This document shows positions 1 through 31,332 of a stretch of 64,000 nt of DNA, one piece after another (positions within the stretch are counted from its first letter, which is position 1; each line of letters opens with the position of its first letter). The notes beneath the pieces are model-generated. The model was not told the DNA's origin, did no database searches, and was given only the letters and a program-made list of their open reading frames with translations. Origin of the DNA: Hormiphora californensis (Eukaryota > Animalia > Ctenophora); assembly GCA_020137815.1 (NCBI GenBank), contig CM035351.1, forward strand, positions 9,610,001 to 9,674,000, written 5' to 3'. The translations under genes were made by a program, and so were the position numbers.

Positions 1-3000
1 GGTTGCGTAGGGTGCTGCCCCCTGTGACTTAAGTTCGAAAAACGCGGATATTTTTGGGGGTGCAACACCGAGGCGTACTTTGTGCAACTGGCCTAAAATT
101 GACTTAGCGATAAGGTTTGGTAGGGCAAGGAGGGAGCATTCTTCAAAAATGGGCTTGGTATGGCTAGGGAGCTCTCCTGTCGCTTTATCATAGTATATTA
201 TAGTCTTTCCAGACCCCATAGCTCTAATAGCCTTCTTTTGGGCGGCGAACAAGGAGGCCAATCGGTTTATTGGAATAGTTCCCCATGCCGATGCACAGTA
301 GATCAGATGCGACTCGACAAAACTACAATATATATTTTTTAGAGGTTTAGGTGGTAGTATTTTCCTTAACTTGTATAAAAGGCCTGCGTTACGCGATATT
401 TTGGAAGTGAGCGCCATTACGTGTGTACTCCAGTTTAAGTTGGCGTCGATTATGACACCCAGGAATCTGGCCTCCTGTTTAAGCTGAACTAAAGTGTCAT
501 TTAAGGACACTGCTATTTTAGAGCTCTTTTGTTTTGTGTTGTTATTGAACACGAGGAGGTTTGTTTTCTCTATGTTTAGTTTTAAGCCATTTTTAGAGAC
601 CCATGCCTGGACAGCTCGGAGTGCACGGTTGCATTTCTGCTCAAGCTCACTGTGGGTTTCAGCTGTGATTAGAAGATTCGAGTCGTCAGCGAAGATAAAA
701 AACTCAGCGAGGTCGGTTGATAGTGGTAGGTCGTTAATATAAATTAAGAAAAGAGTCGGGCCTAATACTGACCCTTGTGGCACACCATGTGAGATGAGCT
801 CCTTTTCAGAACAAAGATTGTTTACATGGACGTATTGACTTCTTTCTATTAAGTAAGATCGGAACCAGTCTAAATTTTTCCCTCTAATACCGTAGTGCTC
901 TAGTTTAGTCAGGAGGATCTCATGATCCACCATATCGAACGCTTTGCTAAAGTCTAATAGAAGTAGAGCTGCTACTTGTTTACGTTCGAGGGCCCTAATT
1001 ATGTTATATTGTGCGTCCAGTATGGCATGCTCGCAGGAGTGAGCGCCCCTGAAGCCATACTGGGAGGCAAAGAGTATGTTGTGAGTTTTTAAATGGCTAA
1101 CGAGTCGAGATTGCATCACTTTCTCATAGAGTTTTGAAAAAGCAGAAAGTAATGAAATTGGACGGTAGTTTTTTATGTCCGATTTAGACCCCCCTTTGTG
1201 CAACGGCACAATTTTTGCTATCTTTAGTTCATTAGGTACTAGTCCTTGTTCCAGTGATTTTGTAATTGCAAAACTTAAAATTCCGGACATTACATGACCT
1301 ACTGATTTCAATGGCTTTATAGATATGTCCGAGGTTGCCTTGTCTTTTAGACCCCTTATTAGGGCTGCTACTTCACTTGCTGGTACAACAGCAGATGGCA
1401 TACTTTCTTGGCAACGGTTGTTGTTTGGAATTGGATTTCCTTGACCAATATGCTCAGCAGCATTCAGCTTTATTTTATTCTTTAATTCTTGAGCAATATT
1501 TTTAAAGTAGTCATTGAACGAATTTGCTATATCACGGTTGTTGCTAAACTTTTGACCTTTGTATTCTAACTTACCAATATTAGCCCTACTTTTCGGTTTG
1601 CGATTTAATAGATCGTTTATCATTGCCCACTGTTTCTTGCTATTCGAGACATGCTCTTCGAAGTATGAGGTGTAAAATTTCTTTTTCGCGATTATGGTGT
1701 GTTTACGGACAAATTTTTTCATCTTTAGGTATTTAACTTCGTTTTCTATAATAGGGTTTTTAATGAATTTTCGGTAAAGAGAGTTTTTACGGGCGCAGGC
1801 GCATTTGAGCCAATCAAGAAGCCAGGGGCATGACTTGCGTCGCGATCTATTTTTACTTGCCTTGCGCTTTAGTAGCGGAAAATGTTTATTGTAAATTTCC
1901 TGATATTTTTCAGATATAGTATGTAGAATATTATCAGCATTTTCTAGATTTAAGATGTAGCTCCAGTCGGTAGATTCTATTTCTTGTCTGAATGTTTCCA
2001 TAGAAGCCTTATTAATGATGCGGCTAGGAGCAAGTGTGCCTACGTCTTTATGGTAAAAACTATAATTTGTAAAACGAACAAAGGTGGCTAGGTGATCTGA
2101 CAGATCGAAGTCGGAGACAATACCTGATTTAGTAATAGCTGTGCAATCGTTGCTAAAAATATGGTCAATAAGTGTAGCTGAGTGATTTGTCACTCTGGTC
2201 GGTCGCGATATTAGCTGCACAAATCCATATTCAGTAAGTTTGTCAACAAATTTTGTGCAGTAATCTGACTTTCCATATTCTAGAAGATTTATGTTGCTAT
2301 CTCCCATTAGGAAAATTCTTTTGTGTTTATCCCTACCTAGTTTAGTAAGAAGCTCCTCTATTTTCCTGGAGAACTTTAGATAGTCAGAGTTTGGAGATCT
2401 ATAATAGTTACAGACTACAATGTTTTTTTCCTTCTCCTGCTGGATCTCTATTGTAAGAAACTCACCGGAGAGGGGATCTGAACTATCGCAAAGGTTAGGC
2501 CTAATTTTCACACATTGAGGATTGCCGAGTCGCGTGTGTACGTATATGGCAAGCCCGCCCCCTCTGTTTGAAGATCTAGCTGGATGTTGTAAGAAGGGGC
2601 TGTGAAAGTTATCTAAGTGTAGCTCGTTACCACCGAAGGGAAGATTTGCTTCGTTGAGATTTGTTTCATTGAAGCAAATAATGTCAAACTTTTGATAGAA
2701 TTCTATATTTTCCCTAATATTAGCTATGTTGTGTGTAAGCGATCTAATATTAGAAGATAGGATTTGTATCTGTTTACTTAGGTTACCTTTAATACGGTCA
2801 GAAGGAGTGTAATTACATGAGTCTAGTACTGAGGACGGTAGTTGCCATGCACCCATATCAGTTGATATATGTGCATCACTATCGAACTCAGCTACATACG
2901 TCGCGGCATGTTTTTTAGCGTAGGGGTTGAACGCGGTTTCCAGTTTGACGAAACTGGAGGTGGTTTTAGATATAATATCCCCAGGAAAAATATTTTGGTG

Positions 3001-3429
3001 GCACGATTTACATCCTAATGTCCCCAAGGAACAACTATTATGGACAGACATCTCACAAATCCAGCATGTGGTTAATTTGTATCTATTTCCTAGTTTTTGA
3101 CAGACATTACACGGCTTAGTGGTATTTAGTATCTTTGAGTGGCCGCGGGTTTCAGATACAGTAAGATTTAGGCATGTAAGAGGTAGCATATCTAGGGTGC
3201 AAGTCTCGCATGTCCAGTGCTGAGTTAAATTTAGATTTGAGAGTTGTTGTATGTCTGTTGGAGTAAGAGAAGCACACTTACTATGCTGAGTAGTCCCACA
3301 TAGAGAGCATGTTATACTCGGTTTGTGGGGTAAACATTTTTTTGAACATTTTTTACATTTGTCGTGTTCACTTAGAAATTTAGTTAGTGTTTGATTAATG
3401 GCGGATAATAATAAGAAAAAATTTGGTAG
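1..3429 (-). CDS. LINE ORF2: two PHD-like zinc fingers + APE endonuclease + reverse transcriptase (partial, runs off window)
   Basis: Manual translation shows CKKC..CSLCGTTQHSKC..WTCETC and CNVC..CWICEMSVHNSC..CKSC; APE motifs MGDSNIN, RPTRVTNHSATLIDHIF, SDHLA; RT motifs NYRPISLL, LDFSKAFD, GVPQGSVLGPTLFLIYINDLP, FADD. Its absence from the ORF track fits a frame with no stop before position 1. Confidence 0.93.
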
Positions 3430-3763
3430 TTAGGCACGGAATGAGAAAGCGGGTGAGGCTTTTTGTACACGCCGTGTCTACCTACTGCGGTGTATTTTCT
3501 GTAGAGATAAGCAGAATGAATAAGTTGGCTATTGTATTTAAATTGTTGTTTCGGGCCTGGTTAGCTTTTTAATAGATAAGTGTGAAGCAGAATTTGTTTG
3601 TTAATTCAGAGAAATTGGGGGATTCGGAGAGAGGGGAAGTAGTATAGTAGAGAATCAAGCCGAGCAGAAAGCGACCGAAAAGCAGCGGTGTGTGTAGTTT
3701 TGTCATGTTGTCAGGTGAGACGTGCACTGAGGTTGTGTGATGGGTGGTTAACATCGATGTCTA

Positions 3764-5506
3764 TCAAAAACGTAAGTGGGTTGGAATACCCAGACGGCCC
3801 CAGAACTCTGGTCGTAAGTCCCAACATCGCCTCTCAGTACATTCAAAAAATAAGAAACTTAACAAACTTTTCCTTATAATAGATTCTAAGTGTGTCTGGG
3901 CTGTCAGCGACAGGTGGATCCCATTCCCTCGCGGACTGAGAATCGGGGGGCCACCAGCTTTCCAGAACTTGGTGGCGGACCAGTGGGTGTCGAGAAAGCG
4001 GAGGTTCGGAAGGGAGCGCGAGAAGTCGAACACCAAATTGTTTATGCTATTTATCTCCCGGTTTAGCCACGGGCCTACTCTGTTCTCGGCGGTATCTAGG
4101 ACAGAGTTAAAGACAAATAGGGTATCAGCGTAGGTAGAGCTCAATCTTGAGAGAATTGGACGAATGTGATTGAACAGAGAGTATCCCCGTTCCCCGTATC
4201 GGGACAGGTCATTGATTCCGGAGCTAATGAACACAATGTCTGTGTTTCTAAATAAATGTTCGTACTGTTCCAGATGGGTGAGCTGATAGAGCCGCCGATA
4301 GACCACCTGTACACCCTTACCCCACTTCAGTTGAGCTCCAAGACCGTTGTAGATGGAGTCAGTTAGAATTAGCACCCTCTTTGGTGGGGTTACAGGTACC
4401 TCGGTCGGTTCCCTTACAGGAGGGATGATTGTTCTAGTGCTAGCTGGGGTGATTTTCCTAAAAGTGAGTGACACACGAGACCCCACGGTTCCATCCGCCG
4501 GGATAGAGTGTTCCCAGTGACGTTGACTGGATTTGGTCATAGAATAAACGGAGCCATTACCTAACTCTATTTCACGCGACTGTTTGGGCCCCGTTATACT
4601 CCTAAAGTGTAATGAGCGGGACTGGCCAATGGAGACACACACAATCTCCGAGTCATCCTCAATTTCGAGTTCATCGTCGCTGTGGAAGGGGATGGATGAC
4701 TCACCGGATGGGTAGAAATTTAGGAGGCAGCTCCATGTTGGAGAGAAGCCATCTATCAGGTTACTTAGTTGCGCCTGGATAGATGGTATGATACCGGAGG
4801 CCGGGAAGGGTTGGGCGGTGTGTGTCTTTCCCCCATATGTGTAGTTCTCCGGCCCAAAACTACAGACATACCTAGTTCCTTCTCTGTCCAAATGTAGCCC
4901 GGCGGTTACAGATTCCGGAGAAATATCAGCATCAATATCAATTGCACACAACACTCTTACCGGATCGATGCTTGTGGGTGTGGGGTCAGTGGCTGCAGCG
5001 GCTAGCGTTCGTGGAGTATCGTCCGTATGTAAGGGGAGAGAGACTGGGTTAGTTGTTGAAGTCGCTGTTGTTGTCGTGTGTGTCTCTGTTTGTGTCCCAA
5101 TAGACATCATTCTCGGGGCAGGATTGCCTGGCAGGCTAAGTCTCTTTCTCATGGGGGTTGAAATAGCAGAGGGGGCGAACATAGCGGCTGTAGGGGCAGA
5201 CATAGACATATCACGTCTAGTGGCACTCATTAACTCATCTACATCCTCAATTAAAATGTCTATTGCAGATTTCTCAATTAAAGTGTCTATTATATCTGTA
5301 GTAACATCTGCTTCCTCTTTCCTATCTCTGTGCAGTATCTCCTTCATCTCGTTCCTACGTAGTAGTCGTGTTTCTCTGTCGGTCGGAAGATCTACCTCAC
5401 CTGGTATAGGAGTGGGTGCCAGGGTGGTATCAGAGGGCGTGGTTGACAAATGGGCAACCAGCCCTGGCGGCCCAGTCTCTTGGTGTTGCTGCGATGCGGT
5501 CATCAT
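3764..5506 (-). CDS. LINE ORF1: AlkB-like 2OG-Fe(II) dioxygenase domain fused to SGNH/GDSL esterase-like domain
   Basis: AlkB motifs LNFY..SIPFHSDDE..VSIG..GSVYSM..WEHSIP..RVSLTFR (HxD, H, Rx5R). SGNH-like blocks VLILTDSI, SSGINDL, GNGIHL. Confidence 0.88.
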   Translation of the reverse strand: MMTASQQHQETGPPGLVAHLSTTPSDTTLAPTPIPGEVDLPTDRETRLLRRNEMKEILHRDRKEEADVTTDIIDTLIEKSAIDILIEDVDELMSATRRDMSMSAPTAAMFAPSAISTPMRKRLSLPGNPAPRMMSIGTQTETHTTTTATSTTNPVSLPLHTDDTPRTLAAAATDPTPTSIDPVRVLCAIDIDADISPESVTAGLHLDREGTRYVCSFGPENYTYGGKTHTAQPFPASGIIPSIQAQLSNLIDGFSPTWSCLLNFYPSGESSIPFHSDDELEIEDDSEIVCVSIGQSRSLHFRSITGPKQSREIELGNGSVYSMTKSSQRHWEHSIPADGTVGSRVSLTFRKITPASTRTIIPPVREPTEVPVTPPKRVLILTDSIYNGLGAQLKWGKGVQVVYRRLYQLTHLEQYEHLFRNTDIVFISSGINDLSRYGERGYSLFNHIRPILSRLSSTYADTLFVFNSVLDTAENRVGPWLNREINSINNLVFDFSRSLPNLRFLDTHWSATKFWKAGGPPILSPRGNGIHLSLTAQTHLESIIRKSLLSFLFFECTERRCWDLRPEFWGRLGIPTHLRF

Positions 5507-5636
5507 GCTCGGCGAGTTATCTTACTATTCGATCGCGATTGATAAGAGCAACATACAAGAGATGAGAGAAGTTGAAGTGGACTAATCACTAGATCCCCAC
5601 TAAAACACACACTAACCCTATATTCCTGCCCCTCAG

Positions 5637-6144
5637 TATGCCCAAGCATTGCCGAACGAGCAGTCCACCCTGAGATTTGTGAGTCTGGCGGAGTGCATGT
5701 TAGAGCAGACCCTGACATCACGGGAGAATGGACGATACAGCTACGATTCTCTTCACCTCGCTAAAGACTACCTAAACAAGGTACTAGTGGAGAGAGATAG
5801 ATAGAGAGATAGAGAGAGGGGATAGTGTTGCCTAGTAGTTAGTACCAAACAAGGCAACAATAGTAAAGAGATGTGTTCAACTTACATCTCTTTGATTCAT
5901 CTCCCGTTTAGATTTCTCCTGCGTCTTCTATCTTTCTAGTGTTTGTCACTCTACATGTCTAATATCAATTAGTTAACCTGCAGTGTGTATCAGCTCTTTC
6001 TATAGCTTGTCATCTGCATGGAGGCGTGTGAGGTACATCTCATTATATTGACAGTTTTAGTAGCTGTCGCCCACATACTCTTTCCCTTCATTTCTCTCTT
6101 TTCTCGCTCTCTTACTCTCTTTTCCCTCTCATTCCTTCTCTCTT

Positions 6145-6237
<93 letters not shown>

Positions 6238-6695
6238 TCTCTCTCTCCCTTTCTAGCTTTTCTCCATCTCTCTCGCTCTCTCCCACTCTCTCACACATAC
6301 TACCCTCGCCACTGAAACTACATAACGGTCTATACTCTACATTTCTTGCATTTCCTGTGGATCATATTAGAATGTGCCAGTTTTGTGGTTTGATTGGTTG
6401 TTGTGCTCCCACCCTGCCTCACTCCCATTCTGTAGAGGTAACCATGGCGGTAACCCCATTAATTCTTGCATGTAACCATGGTTACCGTACTAAACCTACT
6501 GATGATCTGTCTGTAACCATGGTAACCCCACTAATTACATGTAACCACAGGCACTGGCCCACCAAGACAAGACGAACCAGAGTTACAAAGAAGCTATACT
6601 TCTCCAAGCTAAGATGTTCTATGTTCAGGGAAAGTTCCAAGAGTGCCTTGATACCCTCTCTCAGGTTTGTAACACTTGATTGTTCTCTCTCTCTA

Positions 6696-6763
<68 letters not shown>

Positions 6764-9700
6764 CACCACAACTCCATCCCCATTTAGGTAGACCTCGATT
6801 TGATGAAGAAAGAGTGTCTGAGTTTCAATGTGAGTCGGGCCCTCGCTGATGCCTATGTGTATAAGGGCATGTCTATGGAACAACTCCGTGAACTACTCTC
6901 CGCTTCTATAGAGGTATGTAATGCAGCCTCATTATATGCCTAGAGGTATGCAGCTAGTGCAGCATCATTAGTTTTGTAGATTGGTATAACAGTGCCGCTA
7001 TATCCTAGTGGACTGCTTCATGTAGTCCCCTCCCCCCACAGATTGAGGGTATAATTGAGTGTTACGAGAGTGCTGCAGATCTAGGGTTGGCCCTAATGGG
7101 CAGTACTACTAGAAGTAGTTTCAATCTAACCCTTAGTGGAGTACTAGAGATGGCTCTACTGAGATCCATCCTTCTCCAGATGAAACACGGACAGGTAATA
7201 ACACCAGCACGCTGGTTCTACACTGTTGATCATGTCTAATCGTGATGTTACTAACCTCCTTGTTACCCCCTTCCTAACACCCCCCCCCCCTGGCAGGTTG
7301 ACAAGGGTCTAGCTAGACTAAGGAGGGTCCTACAACTAGCTGATGTACAGGGTCTGGATGGACTCCGTGTGAAACTGTGTATAACACTTGGTCAGGTACT
7401 GATACAGGGTGTCCCAGATACAGCATGGCCCCCAATTGTATCTAGAGACTCACCTACAGTGGATGGTATGCCAAAGATAGGACCCAGTAAGGGTCGTGCC
7501 ACCCCTATCCAGAAGAAGTACGAGAGTATGTTCTGTCCCTGCAACAAGGCAGAGGAGGCTCTACTTATCTTACTGATAGGACAGGTAATGATGATCCCTC
7601 TTTTACTGTCACATCCAGTCCAATGGTAACCATAGTGATACCCCCTCCCACAGGCACTGTTGGTCATAACACACCCTCCCACAGGCACTATTGCTCATAA
7701 CACACCCTCCCACAGGCACTGTTGTATAAGGAGGGTTGTGTAAGTCTACACGAGGAGGACGCTGTGATGTGTGCCCAAACTAACAGACAGACCCACTCCC
7801 TACTAAACATGATGGTGTTGCTAATGGGACGGTTTGGACAGTACAGGGCCCTAGCTGACACTCTGGAGAAGTTCCTAAAGTTTAGCTATGAGGTAGGTAA
7901 TACAGGGTCCCCCTGATGGATCCTAGTAGTTCTGTATAATAGAAGAATAGGTAGAAGGAGCATTAGTGATTAGCTTCGATAGTTCCTTTATATTAACAAA
8001 TGGGCACTCGGCTAAAGCAACCCAAATCACCCTGAAATGGCGGGAAGCCAGTTACTAGATGACAAGTCTTTATATCTTCCAGGATCTCCACATTTGTAAG
8101 CAGTTTGGTTTGGCATTACTCTCCTCGGGGCAATACTCTAGAGGTGCAGCTGTGTTGGAGAAGTGTCACGAGGCTAAAGCAGACATTCCTATCGCCCTGA
8201 CTATTGCTAAGGTATAACAGCGCCCCCAGACATATAATACCACACTGATTCTTTCCCACTAACCAATTTCTCCCCCGCAGACCTACATCAACCATCTACA
8301 AAGGTATGAGAAGGCTATATCCATCTGTACCGCATGTTTGGATATGGATTCCAAGCATCTCCGGAGCAGGCTATACCTATATAAGGGGATAGCAGAGGCT
8401 GCTCTAACCCGATCTACCGGCCAGCGTACCACAGTGAACAGTTACAGCAAAGCAGCAGTTGAATCACTGTACAAGGCCTACTCTCTAGACCCTAACTGCC
8501 CCCACATTCTCTATCACCTGGCACTAAGACTTGCTACCGTAGGAGAGATTAGAAAGAGTGTCCGGTAAGTTTTCATTATAATATAACAAGTCCCAGCTTT
8601 TGCAAAACGGTGTTGTCATTAATATGAGGTAGACATTACCATAACATTACCCAACTACTCTACTTCAGGTTTGCTAGAAAGGTGGCTGAGAACCCAGGGG
8701 TGGTCCAGATGGCCGATATAGCCCACTTGTTAGCCCTGCTATTCTCTGCACAACACAAGGGAGAAGAGGCTCTCTCTATTGTGGAACTGTATCTCATTGA
8801 CTACCCTGACAACCTCAACCTTCTAATAACCAGGTATTTTAGTGACAATCTCTTCATCACCACCAGGCCAGGTCTCTAGCGGTGATGATATATCTTGGTA
8901 AGCTCTAACTAACCCATCCCTCATCTAGAGTGTTACTAGAGAGGGTAGTAGATGGGCCTGCTAAAGCACTGGTGACATGTAAAGAGGTCCTGATACCACT
9001 GATTGAGAGACTATCAGGGGGCATGCCAAGAGATGACCAGACATTCCTACCTTACTCTGATCAATGGACATCAGGTACTAAGATCAGTAGTTTTCTTGGC
9101 CCCTCCCCTGGTTCACTCCACCCCTATTATCTCCCCTAACCTCACCCTATTATTCCCCTAACCTCCCCAGGAAAGTTCCAGTTGACACAGTGGAGTGACA
9201 GGGTCAGTACCCACACTCCACCCCTATTATCTCCCCTAACCTCTCCGGAGTGACAGGGTCAGTACCCACACTCCACCCCTATTATCTCCCCTAACCTCTC
9301 CAGGAAAGTTCCAGTTTACACAGTGGAGTGACAGGGTCGGTACCCACACTCCACCCCTATTATCTCCCCTAACCTCCCCAGGAAAGTTCCAGTTGACACA
9401 GTGGAGTGACAGGGACAGTACCCACACTCCACCCCTATTATCTCCCCTAACCTCACCCTATTATCTCCCCTAACCTCTCCAGGAAAGTTCCAGTTGACAC
9501 AGTGGAGTGACAGGGTCAGTACCCACACTCCACCCCTATTATCTCCCCTAACCTCCCCAGGAAAGTTCCAATTGACACAGTGGAGTGACAGGGTCAGTAC
9601 CCACACTCCACCCCTATTATCTCCCCTAACCTCTCCAGGAAAGTTCCAGTTGACACAGTGGAGTGACAGGGTCAGTACCCACACTCCACCCCTATTATCT

Positions 9701-10747
9701 CCCCTAACCTCTCCAGGAAAGTTCCAGTTGACACAGTGGAGTGACAGGGTTAGTACCCACACGACAGCCAGTTTTAGTGGCAGTACAATGGGCACCCTGC
9801 CCGCAGAGAGTATTAGTGAGAGCATTGATAGTGCAGTGGGATGTGATCAGAGCAACTGGGGCTCCCAGGTAAACAACCTATCATGCAGTCCAACCATTTC
9901 ACACAACTCACAGGTAAACTCACACTATTATACAGCCATTCAACACAACTTGTCTCTCATAACACTGCCCTCTCCGAACCGGGCCTTCGGCGCGAAGAAA
10001 CTTTCTTGTGCTAGTACGACAACCACAACTAACACATGTATCACTATCAGGCTGAAGTGTGGTATACAATAGCTGATGTATTCCTATCTGATGGAATGTT
10101 ACCTGACTCACAGAAGTGTGTAGACGAGGTCCGACAACTATTCCCCCTCTCTCACCTTGTCTCCTACATGAATGGGAGGATTCGGGAGGCAGAGGGTAAG
10201 TGTTGCTGATTGAGAAGTATTCCCTTTAGATATATCAAGGGTTACCCCGCCTTCTTGGGGTTACAACCTCTTCCAGATAACTGATATATAATGTTAACAT
10301 TGCATCTCTCTCTCACTAGGTCAGCTGGATGAGGCAGAACAGCAGTATATCAACTCCGTAACTCTCTCACCCCGTCATGTCCCCTCTCTAGTAGCCCTTG
10401 GACGACTACAGATAGATCTTGGGAAGCCTCTACTTGCTGAACACTACCTCACTGAGGCTACAAAGGCAAAGGTAGTTCTACTTTGTTAGTTTCCTTTGTG
10501 TTACACAGTGTATTATAGTGCTCGTGTTTTTAGATGTCGTTTCCTTCATACTATGTGCTTTGTTGTTTCTCTCACTACTATATACCTCTACATCTAGCCG
10601 GACCAGTTTGAAGCATGGCACCACCTAGGTTTACTGCACCAGGGACAGGAGAACCATCAACAAGCTACTGAGTGTTTCCTGACATCACTCCGTTTCGAGT
10701 CTACCTCCCCCATCCGACCCTACACTGTGCTACAATGGAAAATCTGA
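5637..10747 (+). CDS. TTC7: Tetratricopeptide repeat protein 7-like (multi-exon; first exon probably upstream of the window)
   Basis: Exons translate to FVSLAECMLEQ, FCPCNKAEEALLILLIGQ, HLLALLFSAQH, LIDYPDNLNLL and C-terminal AWHHLG..ATECFLTSLRFESTSPIRPY, resembling TTC7A/B. Introns are GT-AG. Confidence 0.82.
6130..6250. repeat. (CT)n microsatellite in TTC7 intron (second tract ~6685-6760)
   Basis: Directly visible. Confidence 0.95.
7641..7722 (+). repeat. 3 x 31-bp tandem copies of a 3' splice site + exon start (TTC7)
   Basis: Unit acaccctcccacag|GCACTrTTG..cataac. The last copy continues into the exon ALLYKEG. Confidence 0.85.
9115..9760 (+). repeat. ~7-8 x 78-bp tandem copies of a 3' splice site + exon start (TTC7)
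   Basis: Unit ccctattatctcccctaacctctccag|GAAAGTTCCAGTTGACACAGTGGAGTGACAGGGTCAGTACCCACAC. The last copy runs into unique exon sequence. Confidence 0.9.
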
Positions 10748-10997
10748 AGAACTGTTAATTTGTTATATTTGCTTGTTACTTATACTGTGTTTGTTGATTC
10801 TGTAAATTTATTCCTAAAGTTTTTTTTTTCGCTGGAACGATTCTGCATGCTGCGTCAAATACGTGTATAATTGTCTAATTTCTCTCCCCCTATAAATCCT
10901 TAACTTTATTTGCCCAGCCCATTAACCAGCCCCCTCTGTCTAGCAATGCATGCTCAGTTATAGTGTTAGAAGATCAGTAGTCAAAACAGCTGCAAGG

Positions 10998-13900
10998 ATG
11001 GTTTCTCAGGTTCCTGACTCCATTAACTTCCCGGCTGAGGAGGAAAAAGTGCTAAAGTGAGTTATACACAGCTGGTGTCTCATTATGAAGCTGTTAACTC
11101 AATAACTCCCTCTCACAATTATAATGACCCATACTAACACAATCCCTCTCATCAAGACCCCTATTGTAGTTACATGGTATACCAATCCCCCTCCCCTACA
11201 GGTACTGGGAAGATAACAAGACATTTGAGAGGAGTTTAGAGCAAAGTAAGAAGGCTAAAAGGCCTGCATTTACATTCTATGATGGCCCTCCCTTTGCTAC
11301 CGGTCTCCCTCACTATGGGCATCTTCTGGCTGGTTCAGTTAAAGATATTGTTACCAGGTAATGGTGTTATTCAAACAGCTGCTTCCAACATCCCCACTAT
11401 TATATCCAGTACCCATTCCTGCCTACCCGGCTATGATAGTCTATACCTGAATACCTCCAGGTATGCCCATATGAACGGGTTTCATGTTGATAGAAGGTTT
11501 GGATGGGATTGCCACGGGTTGCCAGTGGAACACGAGATAGATAAGCGTCTCAATATCACAGGACCCCAGGATGTTGCAGCAATGGGGATTGACAAGTACA
11601 ATGCCGAGTGCAGGTCCATTGTAATGAGATATGCAGGGGAGTGGGAGAGTACTGTCAAACGACTGGGAAGGTGGATCGACTTTAAAAATGTAATTATTTC
11701 CTAGAATGCCTTCCTTCAAAGGAAATGCCTTGTCTCTATTTTACATTTAACCCCTCTCCATCTTCCCTAAAGGGCTCTCTATCTCCGATTAACCTCCCTC
11801 TCTCCCACAGGACTACAAGACCCTCTACCCCTGGTTTAACCTCCCCTCTCTCTCACAGGACTACAAGACCCTCTACCCCTGGTTTAACCCCCTGTCTCCC
11901 ACAGGACTACAAGACCCTCTACCCCTGGTTTAACCCCCTGTCTCCCACAGGACTACAAGACCCTCTACCCCTGGTTTAACCCCCTCCCCCTCTCCCGCAG
12001 GACTACAAGACCCTCTACCCCTGGTTTAACCCCCTCCCCCCTACAAGACCCTCTACCCGTGGTTTAACCCCCCCCTCCCCCCTCTCCCACAGGACTACAA
12101 GACTCTCTACCCCTGGTTTAACCCCCTCTCTCCCTACAGGACTACAAGACCCTCTACCCCTGGTTTAACCCCCTCTCTCCCACAGGACTACAAGACTCTC
12201 TACCCCTGGTTTAACCCCCTCTCTCCCTGCAGGACTACAAGACCCTCTACCCCTGGTTTAACCCCCTCTCCCTGCAGGACTACAAGACCCTCTACCCCTG
12301 GTTTAACCCCCTCTCTCCCACAGGACTACAAGACTCTCTACCCCTGGTTTAACCCCCTCTCTCCCTGCAGGACTACAAGACCCTCTACCCCTGGTTTAAC
12401 CCCCTCTCCCTGCAGGACTACAAGACCCTCTACCCGTGGTTTAACCCCCTCTCTCCCACAGGACTACAAGACTCTCTACCCCTGGTTTAACCCCCTCTCT
12501 CCCTGCAGGACTACAAGACCCTCTACCCCTGGTTTAACCCCCCCCCCTCTCCCACAGGACTACAAGACCCTCTACCCCTGGTTTAACCCCCTCCCCTCTC
12601 CCACAGGACTACAAGACCCTCTACCCCTGGTTTAACCCCTCTCTCTCCCTGCAGGACTACAAGACCCTCTACCCCTGGTTTAACCCCCTCTCTCCCACAG
12701 GACTACAAGACCCTCTACCCCTGGTTTAACCCCCTCTCTCCCACAGGACTACAAGACCCTCTACCCGTGGTTCATGGAGAGTGTTTGGTGGGTTTGGTCC
12801 CAGCTGTTCGCTAAGGGTCTGGTATACAGGGGTTACAAAGTGATGCCCTACTCAACTGCCTGTGCCACGCCCCTCTCTAACTTTGAAGTGAATTTGAACT
12901 ACCAAGATGTCACAGACCCGGCTGTTATTGTTAGTTTCCCCTGTGACCAGGAACCAGGTGTCAGTCTCATAGCATGGACCACCACCCCCTGGACACTGCC
13001 TAGTAACCTGGCTCTGTGTGTTAACCCTGAGATGGTATATGTGAAGGTGGCTGACAAGACCCGGGACGGTGCTAAGTTCATTCTGATGGAGGCCCGGCTC
13101 TGTGCACTCTACAAGAGTGAGGAGGAGTATGAGATACTGGATAGGTTCCCTGGTAAGAAGCTGGCAGGTCTCACCTACACCCCTCTCTTCCCCTACCTGG
13201 CTGGTGAGATGAAGAGTGCCTTCAAGGTGTGTCTGGATGGGTATGTTACTAGTGATAGTGGTACCGGTATTGTTCACCAGGCCCCTGCATTTGGAGAGGA
13301 CGATTACAGGGTGTGTCTAGCTAATGGGGTCTTCAAGAAGGGTCAGGAGCCTGCTATCTGCCCAATCGATGCCTCTGGGAAGTTCACCCCAGTAGTATCA
13401 GACTTTGCAGGACAGTACGTGAAGGATGCAGATAAGCATATTATAAAGCATCTCAAGGGGACAGGAAGGATGGTACATGCAGGCACTGTGAACCATAGTT
13501 ACCCATTCTGTTGGAGATCTGACACCCCCCTCCTGTACCGAGTTATCCCTGGATGGTTTATCAAGGTCACTGCCCTCAGGGAGAAGTTGCTAGCTAACAA
13601 TGATAAGAGTTACTGGGTACCTGAGTTTGTCAAGGAGAAGAGGTTCAGGAACTGGTTGGCAGATTGCCGAGACTGGTCTGTCAGTAGAAACAGATATTGG
13701 GGTACACCCATCCCTCTGTGGGTGAGTGATGATGGGGAGGAGGTGGTGTGTGTGGGGAGTATTGAGGAGCTACAGACCCTCTCAGGGGTTGCAGTGTCTG
13801 ACCTACATAGGGAGAGTATCGACCACATCACCATCCCGTCTAAATGTGGTAAGGGCACTCTGAAGCGTGTTCCTGAGGTGTTTGATTGTTGGTTTGAGAG

Positions 13901-15783
13901 TGGTAGTATGCCTTACGCCCAACAACACTACCCCTTCTCTGGAACAACTGAATTTCGAGAGCAAGTTCCCGGCAGATTTCATTGCAGAGGGAGTTGACCA
14001 GACTAGAGGGTGGTTCTACACCCTGCTAGTTATCTCTACTGCACTCTTTGATAAACCTCCCTTCAAGAATCTCATAGTGACGGGGCTAGTACTGGCTGGG
14101 GATGGTAAGAAAATGTCAAAGAGGCTGAAGAACTACCCTGATCCGGTGGAACTAATGAACAAGTACGGATCAGATTCCATCAGGCTATATCTCATTGATT
14201 CCCCTGTTGTGAGAGCTGATACCCTGAAATTCAAAGAGGAGGGGGTAAAGGGGGTATTGAAGGATGTCCTACTACCCTGGTTCAACGCTTACAGGTTCCT
14301 CATCCAGAATATAGTGCGGCTAGAGCAAGAGGAGGGGAGGAAGTTCGTGTATGAGGGAGATGCTCTGAGTGGGAATGTGATGGATAAATGGATCCTCTCT
14401 TACACTCACTCTCTCATTGAGTTTGTAGAGGTGGAGATGGCTGCATACCGGTTATACACGGTGGTACCCCGTCTAATCAAGTTCATAGAGAACCTGACTA
14501 ACTGGTATGTGCGGTTAAACAGGCCCCGTATCAGGGGTGAGATGGGTGTAGAGGAGTGTGAGGCGAGTGTGAACACCCTCTTCTCAGTCCTCCTGACTAT
14601 GATCAGACTAATGGCTCCCTTCACTCCCTTCCTAACGGAGACCATGTACCAGAACCTCAAACAGGCCATACACCCCAAGTTCTTTAGTGGGGAGGATGAC
14701 TCCATACACTTCCTGATGCTCCCCAAGTTTGATAGTAGCAAGATAGACAGGGAGATAGAGAGGAGGGTGGCTACAATGCAGTCTGTTATTGAGACTGGCA
14801 GGCTACTCCGGGACCGCAACACCCTGCCCATCAAGTACCCTCTAAAGGAGGTGGTACTAGTTGATGTAGATACTACCGTCCTATCTGATGCTCAGTCTCT
14901 AGAGAGCTATATAGTAGGGGAACTGAATGTGAGGAAGCTCACTGTCTCTAGTGACAAGGCCAAGTATGCTGTACAGCTGACTGCTAAACCCAACCACATG
15001 CTCCTTGGAAAGAGGCTGAAGGGTGATTTCAAGAAGGTCAGTGCAGCTATAGTGGCTCTCAATGATGTGGAGTTGAGTGAGATGAAGGAGACTGGAGAGA
15101 GGGAGATCTGTGGGCATGTGATCCAGTTTGATGAGCTCCATGTTGGGTATGAGGTGAAGGGAGCTGAGGGAGGTCAGTATGCAGCTGCTGCTGAGAACAA
15201 TGTACTAATCCTACTGGACTGTACCACTGACCAGGAGCTAATGGATGAGGGTCTAGCGAGGGAGGTTGTTAACAGAGTCCAGAAGTTGAGGAAGAAGGCT
15301 AAACTGGTACCCACTGACAAGATTACTGTTTACTATACCATCAAGGGTAAAGCAGGAGATCTAGTTAGGGTTGTGGGCAGTCAGAAGGATCTGATAGAGA
15401 CCTCCCTCAAGTCATCCTTCCTGGGTGACACCCCCTCTGGAACTACTGTTATAGAGGAGGAGGTGGATGTTAAAGGTACTAAGATGGTCCTAACTCTCGT
15501 TGGAGATCGCCCTGTAGCCCCTGGATTAGTGGTCCAGTGGCCGGGATCTGGCCGCCCTTCTGGACCCTACCTGAGTGTGTCCTATAACGGGCAGACTAAA
15601 GACCTGCTCCTGGCCCCATCTGGTGCTGCTCCCCTCACCGCCATGGAACTAGAGATGGAAGTGAAGATCCTGTTCGATCTGTTTGGGCGCAACATCTCCC
15701 TCTCTCAGGGCGGATCTCAACTCAAGATTAGTGAGCGAGATTTGAGTCAGCTTAATGGACAAACTGTGACCGTGTCAGCCTAG
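10998..15783 (+). CDS. IARS1: Cytoplasmic isoleucyl-tRNA synthetase (one apparent 1-nt frameshift near 13950)
   Basis: [71 protein letters not shown]. Confidence 0.97.
11788..12772 (+). repeat. ~21 x 45-49-bp tandem copies of a 3' splice site + first 26 nt of exon (IARS1 intron 11690-12746)
   Basis: Unit ttaacccc(ct)ncccacag|GACTACAAGACCCTCTACCCCTGG. Only the last copy reads [15 protein letters not shown]. Confidence 0.95.
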
Positions 15784-25364: not shown

Positions 25365-26905
25365 ATGGGGTGAAGGTGAATTAGGAGGTGATATGGGGTG
25401 AAGGTGAATTAGGAGGTGATATGGGGTGAAGGTGAATTAGGAGGTGATATGGGGTGAAGGTGAATTAGGAGGTGATATTGGGTGAAGGTGAATTAGGATG
25501 TGATATTGGGTGAAGGTGAATTAGGAGGTGATATTGGGTGAAGGTGAATTAGGAGGTGATATTGGGTGCGGTGACTTAGGCGGTGCTATTGGGTGCCGGT
25601 GCATTACGGCGGTGCTCTTGGGGTGCAGGGGCCCTTCGGCTGTGCTATTGGGTGCCGGTGCCTTCGGCTGTGCCTCTTGGGTGCCGGTGACTCCATTCGG
25701 CGGTGCTCTTGGGTGCGGTTGCCTTCGGGCGGTGCTCCTTGGGTGCCGGTGGCCTATCGGCGGTGGCTCTTGGGGTGACAGGTGCCTTCGGCTTGGTGCT
25801 CTATTGGGTGCCGGTGCCTTCGGCTGGATAGCTCTTGGGTGCCGGTGGCCTTCGGCGGTGCTCTTGGGTGCCGGTGCCTTCGGCGGTGCTCTTGGGTGCC
25901 GGTGCCTTCGGCGGTGCTCTTGGGTGCCGGTGCCTTCGGCGGTGCTCTTGGGTGCCGGTGCCTTCGGCGGTGCTCTTGGGTGCCGGTGCCTTCGGCGGTG
26001 CTCTTGGGTGCCGGTGCCTTCGGCGGTGCTCTTGGGTGCCGGTGCCTTCGGCGGTGCTCTTGGGTGCCGGTGCCTTCGGCGGTGCTCTTGGGTGCCGGTG
26101 CCTTCGGCGGTGCTCTTGGGTGCCGGTGCCTTCGGCTGTGCTCTTGGGGTGCCGGTGCCTTCGGCGGTGCTCTTGGGTGCCGGTGCCTTCGGCTGTGCTC
26201 TTGGGTGCCGGTGCCTTCGGCTGTGCTCTTGGGTGCCGGTGCCTTCGGCTGTGCTCTTGGGTGCCGGTGCCTTCGGCGGTGCTCTTGGGTGCCGGTGCCT
26301 TCGGCGGTGCTCTTGGGGTGCCGGTGCCTTCGGCGGTGCTCTTGGGTGCCGGTGCCTTCGGCGGTGCTCTTGGGTGCCGGTGCCTTCGGCGGTGCTCTTG
26401 GGTGCCGGTGCCTTCGGCGGTGCTCTGGGTGCCGGTGCCTTCGGCGGTGCTCTTGGGTGCCGGTGCCTTCGGCGGTGCTCTTGGGTGCCGGTGCCTTCGG
26501 CGGTGCTCTGGGGTGCCGGTGCCTTCGGCGGTGCTCTTCGGTGCCGGTGCCTTCGGCGGTGCTCTTGGGTGCCGGTGCCTTCGGCGGTGCTCTTGGGGTG
26601 CCGGTGCCTTCGGCGGTGCTCTTGGGTGCCGGTGCCTTCGGCTGTGCTCTTGGGTGCCGGTGCCTTCGGGGGTGCTCTTGGGTGCCGGTGCCTTCGGCGG
26701 TCCTCTTGGGTGCCGGTGCCTTCGGGTGTGCTCTTGGGTGCCGGTGCCTTCGGCGGTGCTCTTGGGTGCCGGTGCCTTCGGCTGTGCTCTTGGGTGCCGG
26801 TGCCTTCGGCGGTGCTCTTGGGTGCCGGTGCCTTCGGCGGTGCTCTGGGGTGCCGGTGCCTTCGGCGGTGCTCTGGGGGTGCCGGTGCATTAGGAGGTGA
26901 TATTG
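25365..26905. repeat. 28-bp tandem repeat array with A-form flanks and C-form core
   Basis: gggtgaaggtgaattaggaggtgatatt at the ends versus gggtgccggtgccttcggcggtgctctt in the core. Confidence 0.95.
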
Positions 26906-27374
26906 GCTTCAAACAAACTGTTCCACTAGCATTCCATGGCTGCTGGGCTGGCCATTGGTATCCATTAGAGATCTCGTGTGTCCCATAATTAATTGATTTA
27001 ATTAATAATTAGGGCCATCTAAACTTCTCTACAGTTGTTCCTCCCTCAATCTCACCTCTGATAGAGTTTGGTGACGTTGCCCTCGAGCACTCTTCTGTCT
27101 TCTCATGGTCTGTCCAGCTGGTTCTAATGGTTCGTCACCTCCCACCTCCTAAAAGTGATATGGAATGTTACTACTACTGCTGCCCCCCTGCCACCTCCCT
27201 GCCACCTATGTACCTGCATCATTATCATCATGTACTAAGCTATTGCAAATGATAGACAGACAAATAGAGAACTATCCCTCATAGTGAACCGTAATATGTG
27301 TTCTTGAAATTTGATCTATCACGCTCTTAGTTCATCAATCAAGCGGTTGTGGTGCCGAGGTTCCGTGTGGGAGG

Positions 27375-29296: not shown

Positions 29297-31332
29297 ATGA
29301 TGATTTCACTTCTCTGTCTCTTGTTACTTGGTACCTGCTTAGGGTCCGAGCCTGTACTTTCAGAGAGAGAACCAGATAATTCTGATGTGCCAGAGAACCA
29401 GGCCCCGGACGGCAAGGCACCCAATGTGGTGTTTATTATTGCTGACGATCTGGGCTGGAATGATGTTGGATATCACGGTAGTGAACTGAAATCACCGGTA
29501 ATATATACCTGTCTGTCCTTTATGTGTTTTGGTAATACAATCAGAGTGTATAGATTTTGAGACAAGACATCTCTTTAATATGTCATTGTCCTAGCTGATA
29601 CCTGTCTACACTAACCTAATTGTAATTCCCAGTTTACACTCAAATCTCACTATCCTCCATTCTACCAGGTTCTAGATAAGTTGGCCAGCGAGGGACTACG
29701 ATTGGAGAGGCACTACACCCAACCCGAGTGTTCCACAACCCGAGCATCACTTCTTACCAGTCGATACATCGTCAGGACTGGGCTTCAAGCTGATGTCATT
29801 CTTAATGGAGGTATTATAATGGTGTGCTACCCCAGTTGTCTCCTAAATTCTATGAACTACTATTTCCTGATCTCACTAACGTTTCTCCACCCGCAGGAGG
29901 CATGGCCCTGCCCTTGAACGAGACCTTGATGACACAATACCTTAAGGAACTGGGGTACTCCAACTACCTAATTGGAAAGTGGCATCAGGGTGGAAATTCC
30001 TGGAAAGAAACGCCTCTTTTCCGAGGATTTGACTACTTCTACGGCTACCTCGGAGGCCAGATTCACTACTTCGGACACCACCACGCCAAGTTTGGAGGCC
30101 ACGATTTCCGTAAGAACTATCGAGATGCTGATGGGAAGTTCCACGAGGAAATTTTAAAGAAGGAGAGTGGCAAGTATCTGACAAAGCTGCTAACTGACGA
30201 AGCCATCAGAGTTGTAGAGGAGCACGATCAGAGCAAACCTATGTTCCTATACTTCTCAATTCCCAATGTTCACTCCCCCAACCAGTCACCCAAGGGTTAC
30301 AATGAGAAGTACAGTGAGGGGACAGGCGTCACTGAGTTCGACAGAAAACAGCTGGCAGGTAATCTTGGAGGCTTGGAGGAGTCGGTACACAATCTGACGG
30401 AGGCCCTCAAGAAGAGTGATATGTGGGAAAACACAATGGTTGTGTTCCTCTCAGACAACGGAGGGTGCCCAGAGCAGTTGATGAGCTATGGTGGCCATAG
30501 TAACTACCCTCTTAGATCCGGGAAGACCACTTTGTTTGAGGGGGCACTTAGAACACCTGCCTTCGTTTATGGGCCCATTGTGGACCACTTGAGGGGCCAG
30601 GAAAGTCACGGTACATTCCATGTGTCTGATTGGTTCCCGACACTGCACAGCATCATCAAGGCCAAGACTGGTAAGACAGTGAAGCTGGTAAACCCTATAG
30701 ATGGGGTGGATAACAGTGCTATGATTCTAAATAACGGACCCACCAAGAGGACAGAGATGCTTCACCAACTGAACCTAGGAAATCAGGCCTACAGAATGGG
30801 AGACTACAAAATCATTGTTGGTATGTCACCCTCCTTCAATTCAATATAGATTATCTCTGAATATTCCTGATATTATAATAAACTTCTACAGAAAATAACT
30901 CCCTCCCTAACCCCATGTCTACCCCTAGGTGATCCTGGCCAGTATGATGGATTTAAGAAGACAGAAGGACGACCAGATATCAAGATTCAATACGACGAGC
31001 CAGAGGACTTCCTTGGCAAGCTGAAGTGCACCCTGGGTCTGTGTGGTAGTTTCGGGGACTTTATTGTTGATGAGGACGGGGCTAATGTTCGACTGTATAA
31101 CGTGATAGAGGATCCCAGTGAGACTTACAATCTTGCCGCTAAGAAACCAGAGATTGTGAAAGAGATGCGTGCTAGGCTAGAGAAGTTCAAGGAGATTGTG
31201 ATGCCAGCCCAATTCAATGGAAAAATTAACGCTGCCCACTTCAAGCACAATGGTGGTATCTGGCAGCCGTGGAAGGACGATATGGAAGGGGTGGAAATTA
31301 ACCAGAGGTTCCTAACTAAAACTGAACTTTAA
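29297..31332 (+). CDS. Secreted/lysosomal arylsulfatase (ARSB/ARSJ-like), copy 1, 4 exons
   Basis: Signal peptide, [74 protein letters not shown]. Confidence 0.92.

What the first reader, a model, noticed from the sequence alone, without database searches (positions are those of the whole stretch)
3764..5506. LINE ORF1 carries an AlkB-family nucleic-acid demethylase domain fused to an SGNH esterase
Seen: ORF1 holds a full AlkB-type ligand set (HSD at ~4676-4684, distal H in WEHSIP, R-x5-R in RVSLTFR; ~4455-4870) directly before SGNH-like blocks (TDSI, GINDL, NGIH; ~3800-4380). Established: SGNH esterase domains occur in ORF1 of some CR1/L2-group LINEs, and AlkB domains are captured by some plant RNA viruses, where they act on methylated RNA. 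Inference: the retrotransposon may carry its own demethylase to repair or unmark its RNA or cDNA, or to counter methylation-based silencing. I cannot confirm whether this architecture is already catalogued.
Basis: partly seen in the sequence, partly recalled or inferred. Interest (0 to 1): 0.88.

Follow-up and report, generated by a model that had tools for sequence, protein, structure and literature searches.

The report
Comb-jelly LINEs carry an AlkB enzyme
A large family of comb-jelly jumping genes (LINE retrotransposons) has an intact AlkB-type dioxygenase domain built into its first protein, next to an esterase-fold domain, and this enzyme likely repairs chemically damaged bases in the element's own RNA or DNA copy so that it can be copied into the genome.

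Summary
Confirmed, and not a one-off. ORF1 (5506-3764, minus strand, 580 aa) holds a predicted coiled-coil helix, an AlkB domain (Pfam E 7e-20; best folds ALKBH3/ALKBH2, Z about 20) and an SGNH domain (Z 17.6). An APE-RT ORF2 follows. Relatives are many: 45 in one search, and 107 of the best 150 distinct 50%-identity clusters carry both domains. Every named member is a ctenophore. Iron and 2-oxoglutarate ligands are kept in 44-45 of 46 proteins, and dN/dS is roughly 0.15. Five metagenome contigs show the same ORF1 in front of a LINE ORF2. The AlkBs form their own clade (100/96) and lack the ALKBH2/3 F1 hairpin finger. A sister clade sits as a separate reading frame in a different LINE. The subfamily resembles m1A/m3C repair enzymes, not ALKBH5-type m6A erasers (E 1.8), so repair of the single-stranded template is likelier than anti-silencing. 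Activity is untested. Ten literature searches found AlkB in plant viruses and orchid Gypsy elements but not in LINEs; Repbase and Dfam could not be checked.

The parts
3764..5506 (-). ORF1, 580 aa: coiled-coil-like helix, AlkB domain, SGNH domain
5204..5377 (-). Long amphipathic-looking helix, residues 44-101; predicted coiled coil for multimerisation (inferred)
   Evidence: AlphaFold H44-101, pLDDT 61-78; weak profile hits to coiled-coil proteins
4958..5203 (-). Disordered Ser/Thr/Pro-rich linker, residues 102-183
   Evidence: pLDDT under 50 over most of it; 16% mean identity in relatives
4451..4957 (-). AlkB-family Fe(II)/2-oxoglutarate dioxygenase domain, residues 184-352: lid R212, Y222, Y224; H275-x-D277-x-E279; H333; R344-x5-R350; F1 hairpin short
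3848..4381 (-). SGNH hydrolase-fold domain, residues 376-553: S384, N432, H531; Asn528 in place of the triad Asp
3430..3763 (-). Spacer between ORF1 and ORF2, 334 bp (about 340-730 bp in five relatives)
1..3429 (-). ORF2, at least 1143 aa without a stop: PHD/C1-like finger, APE endonuclease, reverse transcriptase. It runs off the window; the first Met comes after the PHD
5507..5900 (-). Likely 5' UTR; the 5' boundary is only approximate (about 5580-5900)
   Evidence: summed contig depth falls from 537 to 49 beyond 5916 in run X6, and a loose end lies at 5581; depth is not a copy number

Best explanation
This is a CR1-group-type LINE whose ORF1 protein joins a predicted coiled coil, an AlkB-family dioxygenase domain with intact metal and co-substrate ligands, and an SGNH-fold domain, and the AlkB domain likely repairs alkylated bases (m1A, m3C, perhaps etheno adducts) in the element's single-stranded RNA or first-strand cDNA. 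Shown: the architecture, its conservation in over a hundred divergent clusters, purifying selection, linkage to an APE-RT ORF2, and a separate AlkB clade with a short F1 hairpin. Inferred: (1) ORF1p multimerises through the helix and coats its own mRNA (cis preference is recalled LINE biology); (2) the SGNH domain docks the particle on membranes, as the ZfL2-1 esterase does; (3) the AlkB domain oxidises Watson-Crick-face lesions that would stall the element's reverse transcriptase, so more full-length copies are made; (4) loss of the duplex-wedging hairpin points to single-stranded substrate. One old capture followed by shuffling of ORF1 between ORF2 lineages best fits the trees.
For: Ligands H275, D277, E279 are present in 44 of 46 proteins and H333, R344, R350 in 45 of 46; the exceptions are one fragment and one degenerate AlkB. 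All motifs are found in 131 of the best 150 clusters. The AlkB domain keeps 37% mean identity against 14-18% in the N-terminal parts. Differences to contigs of a second organism label are 21 synonymous and 11 non-synonymous, dN/dS about 0.15, p 8e-7 (4e-5 with strong transition bias). The nearest solved proteins are ALKBH3 and ALKBH2 by profile (E 9e-31, 4e-28), Foldseek (E 4e-14) and VIA-align (Z 20.2, 19.8). The ALKBH2 residues that engage the flipped base (R110, Y122, F124, E175; passages in PMC12295762) have apparent counterparts R212, Y222, Y224, E279; E279 is aligned directly, the other three are my mapping by motif spacing. Plant-virus AlkBs related to the same group repair m1A and m3C and prefer RNA (PMC2553587 passages). 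The hairpin finger motif is absent in 142 of 142 scored family members and present in 94 of 114 cellular hits. ORF2 follows ORF1 in L001, L003, L004, L006, L007, begins in L005, and is joined to ORF1 in three Mnemiopsis gene models.
Against: No activity was measured. Deleting F1 from human ALKBH2 or ALKBH3 abolishes demethylation (PMC2965238 passages), so substrate cannot be read straight from ALKBH2/3; a bacterial group with an equally short hairpin exists, but I found no assay for it. AlkB specificity shifts easily within a group (PMC2790896 passages). The 2-oxoglutarate-stabilising Asn (N263) is Thr in 36 of 46 proteins. The AlkB domain is acidic (pI 5.1; family median 5.9), which is odd for a nucleic-acid binder. 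One relative (P0044) keeps SGNH but has lost the AlkB motifs, so the domain may be dispensable in some elements. The esterase lacks the triad Asp in 38 of 46 proteins. No reason is known why comb-jelly LINE RNA should suffer more alkylation than other LINE RNA. The dN/dS value is patched together from several contigs; 4 minor-variant rows were set aside (1 synonymous, 3 non-synonymous, one of them a stop at E279 in run X12).
Confidence: 0.55

Rival explanations
1. The AlkB domain erases a mark that the host places on purpose (m6A or m1A on the element's RNA), so it works as counter-defence rather than repair.
For: There is a precedent: orchid Gypsy elements encode an ALKBH5-like m6A demethylase active in vitro (PMC9289625 sections). 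FTO and ALKBH5 share the fold (Z 15.1 and 14.4). Long retention across many families fits an arms race.
Against: The profile match to ALKBH5 is at chance level (E 1.8) against E 9e-31 for ALKBH3. The HxDxE glutamate that contacts the amino group of m1A/m3C in ALKBH2 is kept in 44 of 46 proteins. The selection seen is purifying; positive selection was not tested.
Confidence: 0.17
2. The domain serves mainly as the RNA-binding or modified-base-reading module that esterase-type ORF1 proteins otherwise lack, and catalysis is secondary.
For: Esterase ORF1ps in RepBase had no structured RNA-binding domain (PMC3905857 section); AlkB sits where such a domain would be; F1 is short.
Against: All five catalytic ligands are almost invariant. 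The domain is acidic. A sister clade occurs as a separate frame in a LINE whose ORF1 looks L1-like and so probably binds RNA already.
Confidence: 0.1
3. The enzyme acts on DNA at the insertion site or on the new copy, for example removing 3mC made off-target by host DNMTs.
For: ALKB2 co-evolves with DNMTs because DNMTs make 3mC, and Mnemiopsis has CG methylation (PMC9246332 passages). ALKBH2-DNA complexes are top Foldseek hits.
Against: The hairpin that lets ALKBH2 work on duplex DNA is missing. Esterase-type ORF1p is linked to membranes and RNP assembly.
Confidence: 0.1
4. A one-off capture, a domesticated host gene next to a LINE, or an assembly chimera.
For: No genome was available to count copies. 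DNA context was seen for only 8 loci with the fusion; the deepest-branching proteins have none.
Against: One contig spans 3447-5422 with no differences. The same ORF1-ORF2 order occurs in five unrelated contigs with ORF2 at 37-46% identity. Near-identical copies lie on at least six different long Mnemiopsis contigs. There are no introns.
Confidence: 0.02

Closest known systems
Type IV (esterase) ORF1 of CR1/L2 LINEs, e.g. zebrafish ZfL2-1 (PMC3905857; PMC4120745)
   Same: Coiled coil, linker, C-terminal SGNH domain with catalytic Ser, oxyanion Asn and His; a probable counterpart of transposon-specific S228 (S468, 42 of 46); basic esterase domain (pI 9.8).
   Different: An AlkB domain lies between coiled coil and esterase; the triad Asp is Asn here; the H191 position is Ser in 42 of 46 (His in 2). 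The ORF1 survey of 448 elements mentions no oxygenase.
Orchid Ty3/Gypsy paALKBH5-like ORF (PMC9289625)
   Same: A retrotransposon that has kept an AlkB-family dioxygenase with intact ligands.
   Different: That case is an LTR element with a separate ORF, recent, limited to Phalaenopsis, ALKBH5/9B-like, with m6A activity shown. This one is a non-LTR element, fused in ORF1, deeply diverged, and ALKBH2/3-like.
AlkB domains of plant RNA viruses (PMC2553587)
   Same: An RNA-intermediate parasite carrying an AlkB of the group 1B / ABH2 / ABH3 type; RNA-preferring m1A/m3C repair is the model for the proposed function.
   Different: The viral domain lies within a replicase polyprotein. No plant-virus AlkB was in my trees, so relationship is untested.
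Human ALKBH2 and ALKBH3; bacterial group 1B AlkB (PMC2965238; PMC2790896)
   Same: Fold (Z about 20), HxDxE...H and R-x5-R, and lid residues.
   Different: No F1 hairpin finger; own clade apart from the sampled cellular and giant-virus AlkBs (100/96); fused to other domains.

Membership tests
AlkB family (2OG-FeII_Oxy_2) | HxD...H iron triad and R-x5-R | tested here: met
AlkB family (2OG-FeII_Oxy_2) | Double-stranded beta-helix fold with nucleotide-recognition lid | tested here: met
   model pLDDT 85-97 over the domain; ALKBH3 Z 20.2, rmsd 2.3, 174 aligned
AlkB family (2OG-FeII_Oxy_2) | Fe/2OG-dependent oxidative dealkylation of nucleic acid | not testable with these tools
   needs an enzyme assay
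ALKBH2/ALKBH3 and bacterial group 1B | Lid Arg, Y-x-F/Y and HxDxE substrate residues | tested here: met
   R212 45/46, Y222 42/46, Y224 44/46, E279 44/46; mapping of the lid residues is by motif spacing
ALKBH2/ALKBH3 and bacterial group 1B | Extended F1 beta-hairpin before the lid Arg | tested here: not met
   finger motif in 0 of 142 scored family members (8 not scored) against 94 of 114 cellular hits; two-residue turn in the model
ALKBH2/ALKBH3 and bacterial group 1B | Nests among ALKBH2/3 orthologues in a tree | tested here: inconclusive
   own clade against 28 bacterial, archaeal and viral rows, but no named animal ALKBH2/3 was in the set and the tree is unrooted
ALKBH5/ALKBH9B m6A erasers | Closest sequence and fold relationship to ALKBH5 | tested here: not met
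   profile E 1.8 against 9e-31 for ALKBH3; Z 14.4 against 20.2
SGNH esterase of type IV LINE ORF1 | SGNH fold with catalytic Ser, Asn and His | tested here: met
   S384, N432, H531 each 46/46; Z 17.6
SGNH esterase of type IV LINE ORF1 | Triad Asp in DxxH | tested here: not met
   N528 in the window; Asp in 8 of 46; DxxH is common in a deeper subclade
SGNH esterase of type IV LINE ORF1 | Transposon-specific H191/S228 pair | tested here: inconclusive
   S468 42/46 fits S228 by spacing; the H191 position is Ser in 42, His in 2; no direct alignment to ZfL2-1 was obtained
SGNH esterase of type IV LINE ORF1 | N-terminal coiled coil | tested here: inconclusive
   58-residue helix predicted; oligomer not tested
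CR1-group LINE (CR1, L2, Crack, Daphne) | Two ORFs; ORF2 with APE and RT | tested here: met
CR1-group LINE (CR1, L2, Crack, Daphne) | 3' end in short tandem repeats | tested here: inconclusive
   short repeats follow the 3' UTR in L003, L004, L006 and L011; the window's own 3' end is off the window. That this marks the group is recalled
CR1-group LINE (CR1, L2, Crack, Daphne) | RT groups with reference clades | not testable with these tools
   no reference RT set on hand; the clade label rests on recalled motifs and architecture
CR1-group LINE (CR1, L2, Crack, Daphne) | Interspersed copies, more 3' than 5' ends | tested here: inconclusive
   relatives on several long contigs of one species; contig depth is higher over ORF2 than ORF1 in runs X2, X6 and X9, but depth is not a copy number

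The most novel reading that the evidence does not exclude
Comb-jelly LINEs captured an AlkB early, probably from a bacterial short-hairpin group, and evolved it into their own subfamily. It travels in the retrotransposon particle and strips host-installed or damage-derived methyl marks from the template RNA. That would be the first base-modifying enzyme known in a LINE, a counter-measure to an RNA-modification defence, and a module reused by at least two LINE lineages (fused in ORF1, or as a free frame between ORF1 and ORF2).
Probability: 0.25. Interest if true: 0.92.

Novelty: new variant of a known kind. Interest (0 to 1): 0.75.

Why it matters
What LINE ORF1 proteins do beyond binding RNA is an open question, and whether RNA repair matters biologically rests mostly on plant-virus AlkBs. 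Here is a conserved, catalytically intact enzyme in the ORF1 of a whole radiation of animal LINEs, in a phylum with a tractable model (Mnemiopsis). One point mutation and standard phage-rescue or LC-MS assays test directly whether base damage or RNA methylation limits retrotransposition. It adds a new ORF1 architecture, and a third independent case of AlkB capture by RNA-intermediate parasites. Compact AlkBs without the F1 hairpin could also be useful reagents for modification sequencing.

Tried and rejected
No whole genome is held, so copies in this genome could not be counted; no second copy lies in the window. No RNA holder was listed. Run X11 has five short contigs on the element, but its RNA label is a guess, so expression was not assessed. 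Folding the SGNH domain alone without an alignment gave a poor model (pLDDT 50) that was not used. The ZfL2-1 esterase did not appear among the 50 fold rows or 60 profile rows shown; this does not exclude kinship. A search for longer proteins found 1 hit among 2272 candidates and no natural ORF1-RT fusion, which is weak evidence. Antisense frames 3741-4133 and 4845-5585 had no Pfam match and were taken as shadows. The apparent sister link to short-hairpin bacterial AlkBs (97/96) fell to 90/85 once the hairpin was trimmed and is an unrooted three-way split, so the donor is not established. In the first quick tree one long viral branch (L049) fell inside the family; it and P0044 were left out of later trees. 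Literature: ten searches; one search was uninformative. AlkB+CR1+retrotransposon+Repbase gave 0 papers; 'AlkB domain'+retrotransposon gave 7, none about LINEs by title or abstract. The Pleurobrachia genome paper and its supplement were not held; its transposon supplement and Repbase/Dfam entries may already note the domain. Earlier scan findings: none. No complex prediction was sent.

Full report
Observation. The minus-strand frame 5506-3764 encodes 580 aa. Pfam gives 2OG-FeII_Oxy_2 at E 7e-20 over residues 219-350 and a sub-threshold Lipase_GDSL_2 at E 8e-4 over 408-533. An AlphaFold model built on 46 sequences (mean pLDDT 76.7; about 85-97 in most blocks of both domains) shows a helix at 44-101, a disordered linker, the AlkB domain at about 184-352 and an SGNH domain at 376-553. 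Among 48,161 solved chains the best matches are ALKBH3 (Z 20.2), ALKBH2 (Z 19.8) and then SGNH hydrolases (Z 17.6 and below).

The element. A 334-bp spacer separates ORF1 from an ORF2 that is open for 1143 aa to the window's edge, with a weak PHD, APE and RT. A public contig spans 3447-5422 with no differences, so the ORF1-spacer join is not an assembly chimera. The 5' end lies somewhere around 5580-5900. The nearest protein, 96% identical over residues 180-580, is a Pleurobrachia bachei gene model, so the window most likely comes from a Pleurobrachia comb jelly. The label 'CR1 group' rests on architecture and recalled motifs, since no reference RT set was available.

It is a family. A search with residues 180-580 found 45 proteins among 3091 candidates, 19-94% identical over the whole alignment. 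A profile of seven AlkB domains against 1.84 billion representatives at 50% identity gave 373 at E up to 1e-30, of which the best 150 were listed. Of those 150, 107 match an SGNH profile, 25 end within 60 residues of the AlkB domain, and 18 have longer tails. Seven of the 18 have a GDSL Pfam match at E up to 0.05, and 17 show a block-I-like motif. Named members are P. bachei and Mnemiopsis leidyi; Atlas clusters with this architecture are eukaryotic with Ctenophora commonest, on few records.

DNA context. Of 44 metagenome loci, 8 carry the two-domain ORF1. Four have a full APE-RT ORF2 downstream, one has ORF2 up to the contig end, one shows the first codons of ORF2, one ends 114 bases after ORF1, and one is frameshifted and ends without ORF2. 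Three Mnemiopsis gene models join this ORF1 to an APE domain, and one Mnemiopsis family lies on at least six different long contigs.

Selection. H275, D277 and E279 are kept in 44 of 46 proteins; H333, R344 and R350 in 45 of 46; S384, N432 and H531 in all 46. Mean identity to the window protein is 37% in AlkB, 35% in SGNH and 14-18% in the N-terminal parts, against 37-46% for ORF2 in four relatives. Within AlkB, contigs of a second organism label differ at 21 synonymous and 11 non-synonymous sites, dN/dS about 0.15; four minor-variant rows (1 synonymous, 3 non-synonymous including a stop) were set aside; the four differences within the first organism label are all synonymous. The estimate is rough because it is patched from several contigs.

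Which AlkB. The family profile hits ALKBH3 at E 9e-31, ALKBH2 at 4e-28, ALKBH8 at 1e-13, E. coli AlkB at 2e-7 and ALKBH5 at 1.8. In a mixture-model tree of 26 family and 28 other AlkB domains, the family is one side of a 100/96 branch. This held at 98/93 with the hairpin region trimmed (34 rows) and at 98/98 with 17 further members (45 rows). The outgroup lacked named animal ALKBH2/3 and plant-virus AlkBs, and the trees are unrooted. The family lacks the F1 hairpin finger (0 of 142 scored, against 94 of 114 cellular hits), as does one bacterial group that includes Pseudomonas and Polyangiaceae proteins. In human ALKBH2 and ALKBH3 the F1 hairpin sets duplex versus single-strand preference, and deleting it abolishes demethylation (PMC2965238, passages). 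A short F1 therefore argues against ALKBH2-like duplex repair but also weakens any direct transfer of function.

A second architecture. Contigs L011, L012 and L014 (98-99.6% identical) hold a different LINE: an ORF1 with a coiled coil and an L1-like look (my reading; no Pfam match above cut-off), then a separate AlkB frame, then an APE-RT ORF2 only 28% identical to the window's. This AlkB groups with five stand-alone proteins of about 200 aa (100/97), inside the family branch. ORF1 and ORF2 also disagree among the fused elements: L003 and L004 share the closest ORF1s (46%), while L004's ORF2 is closest to L006 and L007 (50-52%) and L003's to the window's (46%). This fits the ORF1 shuffling described for CR1/L2 elements (PMC4120745, passages).

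The esterase. Ser, Asn and His are invariant, but the triad Asp is Asn in the window and Asp in only 8 of 46. The ZfL2-1 esterase is a weak hydrolase that binds acidic lipids independently of catalysis (PMC3905857, one section and passages). The window's domain is basic (pI 9.8), which fits a similar membrane role; this is inferred.

Mechanism. The likeliest reading (0.55) is that ORF1p brings an active AlkB into the retrotransposon particle to reverse m1A, m3C or etheno lesions on the single-stranded template or first cDNA strand. Plant-virus AlkBs, related to the same ABH2/ABH3 group, do this on RNA (PMC2553587, passages). Rivals are erasure of a deliberate host mark (0.17), a binding role (0.10), action on DNA such as DNMT-made 3mC (0.10; PMC9246332, passages) and a one-off or artefact (0.02). 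Some bacterial AlkBs act on etheno adducts and hardly on methyl groups (PMC2790896, passages), so the substrate needs an assay.

Novelty. AlkB capture is known in plant RNA viruses and in orchid Gypsy elements, where the enzyme is ALKBH5-like (PMC9289625, passages and Discussion). Esterase ORF1s are known. Ten searches showed no LINE with AlkB. Term look-ups found no 'oxygenase' in an ORF1 survey, a 2026 CR1-group survey or a review of giant transposons, and no 'dioxygenase' in a 2026 preprint on retrotransposon methyltransferases; I saw passages only. The Atlas labels the domain pair automatically without linking it to LINEs. Verdict: real, family-wide, a new variant of a known kind; interest 0.75.

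Noticed in passing
L012 2223-3946; L011 6-4893; L014: A different LINE with an L1-like-looking ORF1, a separate AlkB frame and an APE-RT ORF2. The AlkB frame has no ATG before the domain in these copies, while five related stand-alone proteins of about 200 aa start with Met.
   Followed up: partly
L003, L004, L006, L007 and window: ORF1 and ORF2 relationships disagree (L003-L004 ORF1 46% but ORF2 39%), which suggests ORF1 exchange between lineages.
   Followed up: partly
P0137, P0379, P0383, P0375: Long proteins (756-1596 aa) with two AlkB-like stretches, the first degenerate, before an SGNH domain; DNA context unknown.
   Followed up: partly
P0044: A relative with intact SGNH motifs whose AlkB catalytic motifs have decayed.
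   Followed up: no
window 3429-3187 (minus): ORF2 has no ATG before its PHD finger (first Met at residue 81 of the open frame), whereas relatives start with Met just before it: a non-AUG start or a lost start in this copy.
   Followed up: no
L013, L015-L021, L029, L051-L057: A bacterial AlkB clade with a short F1 hairpin, in Pseudomonas and Polyangiaceae among others; I found no assay for it.
   Followed up: partly
window 29806-30849 and 33427-34524: Two near-identical sulfatase-like exons in tandem (label recalled from motifs): a recent duplication or an assembly repeat.
   Followed up: no
window about 6540-10750 and 11240-15783: Host genes next to the element: a TPR-like gene pointing away from the LINE's 5' end, and an isoleucyl-tRNA synthetase-like gene (labels recalled from the translations); tandem repeats lie within both.
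   Followed up: no
window 25521-27008 and 45350-46584: Long low-complexity tandem arrays that give open frames on both strands.
   Followed up: no
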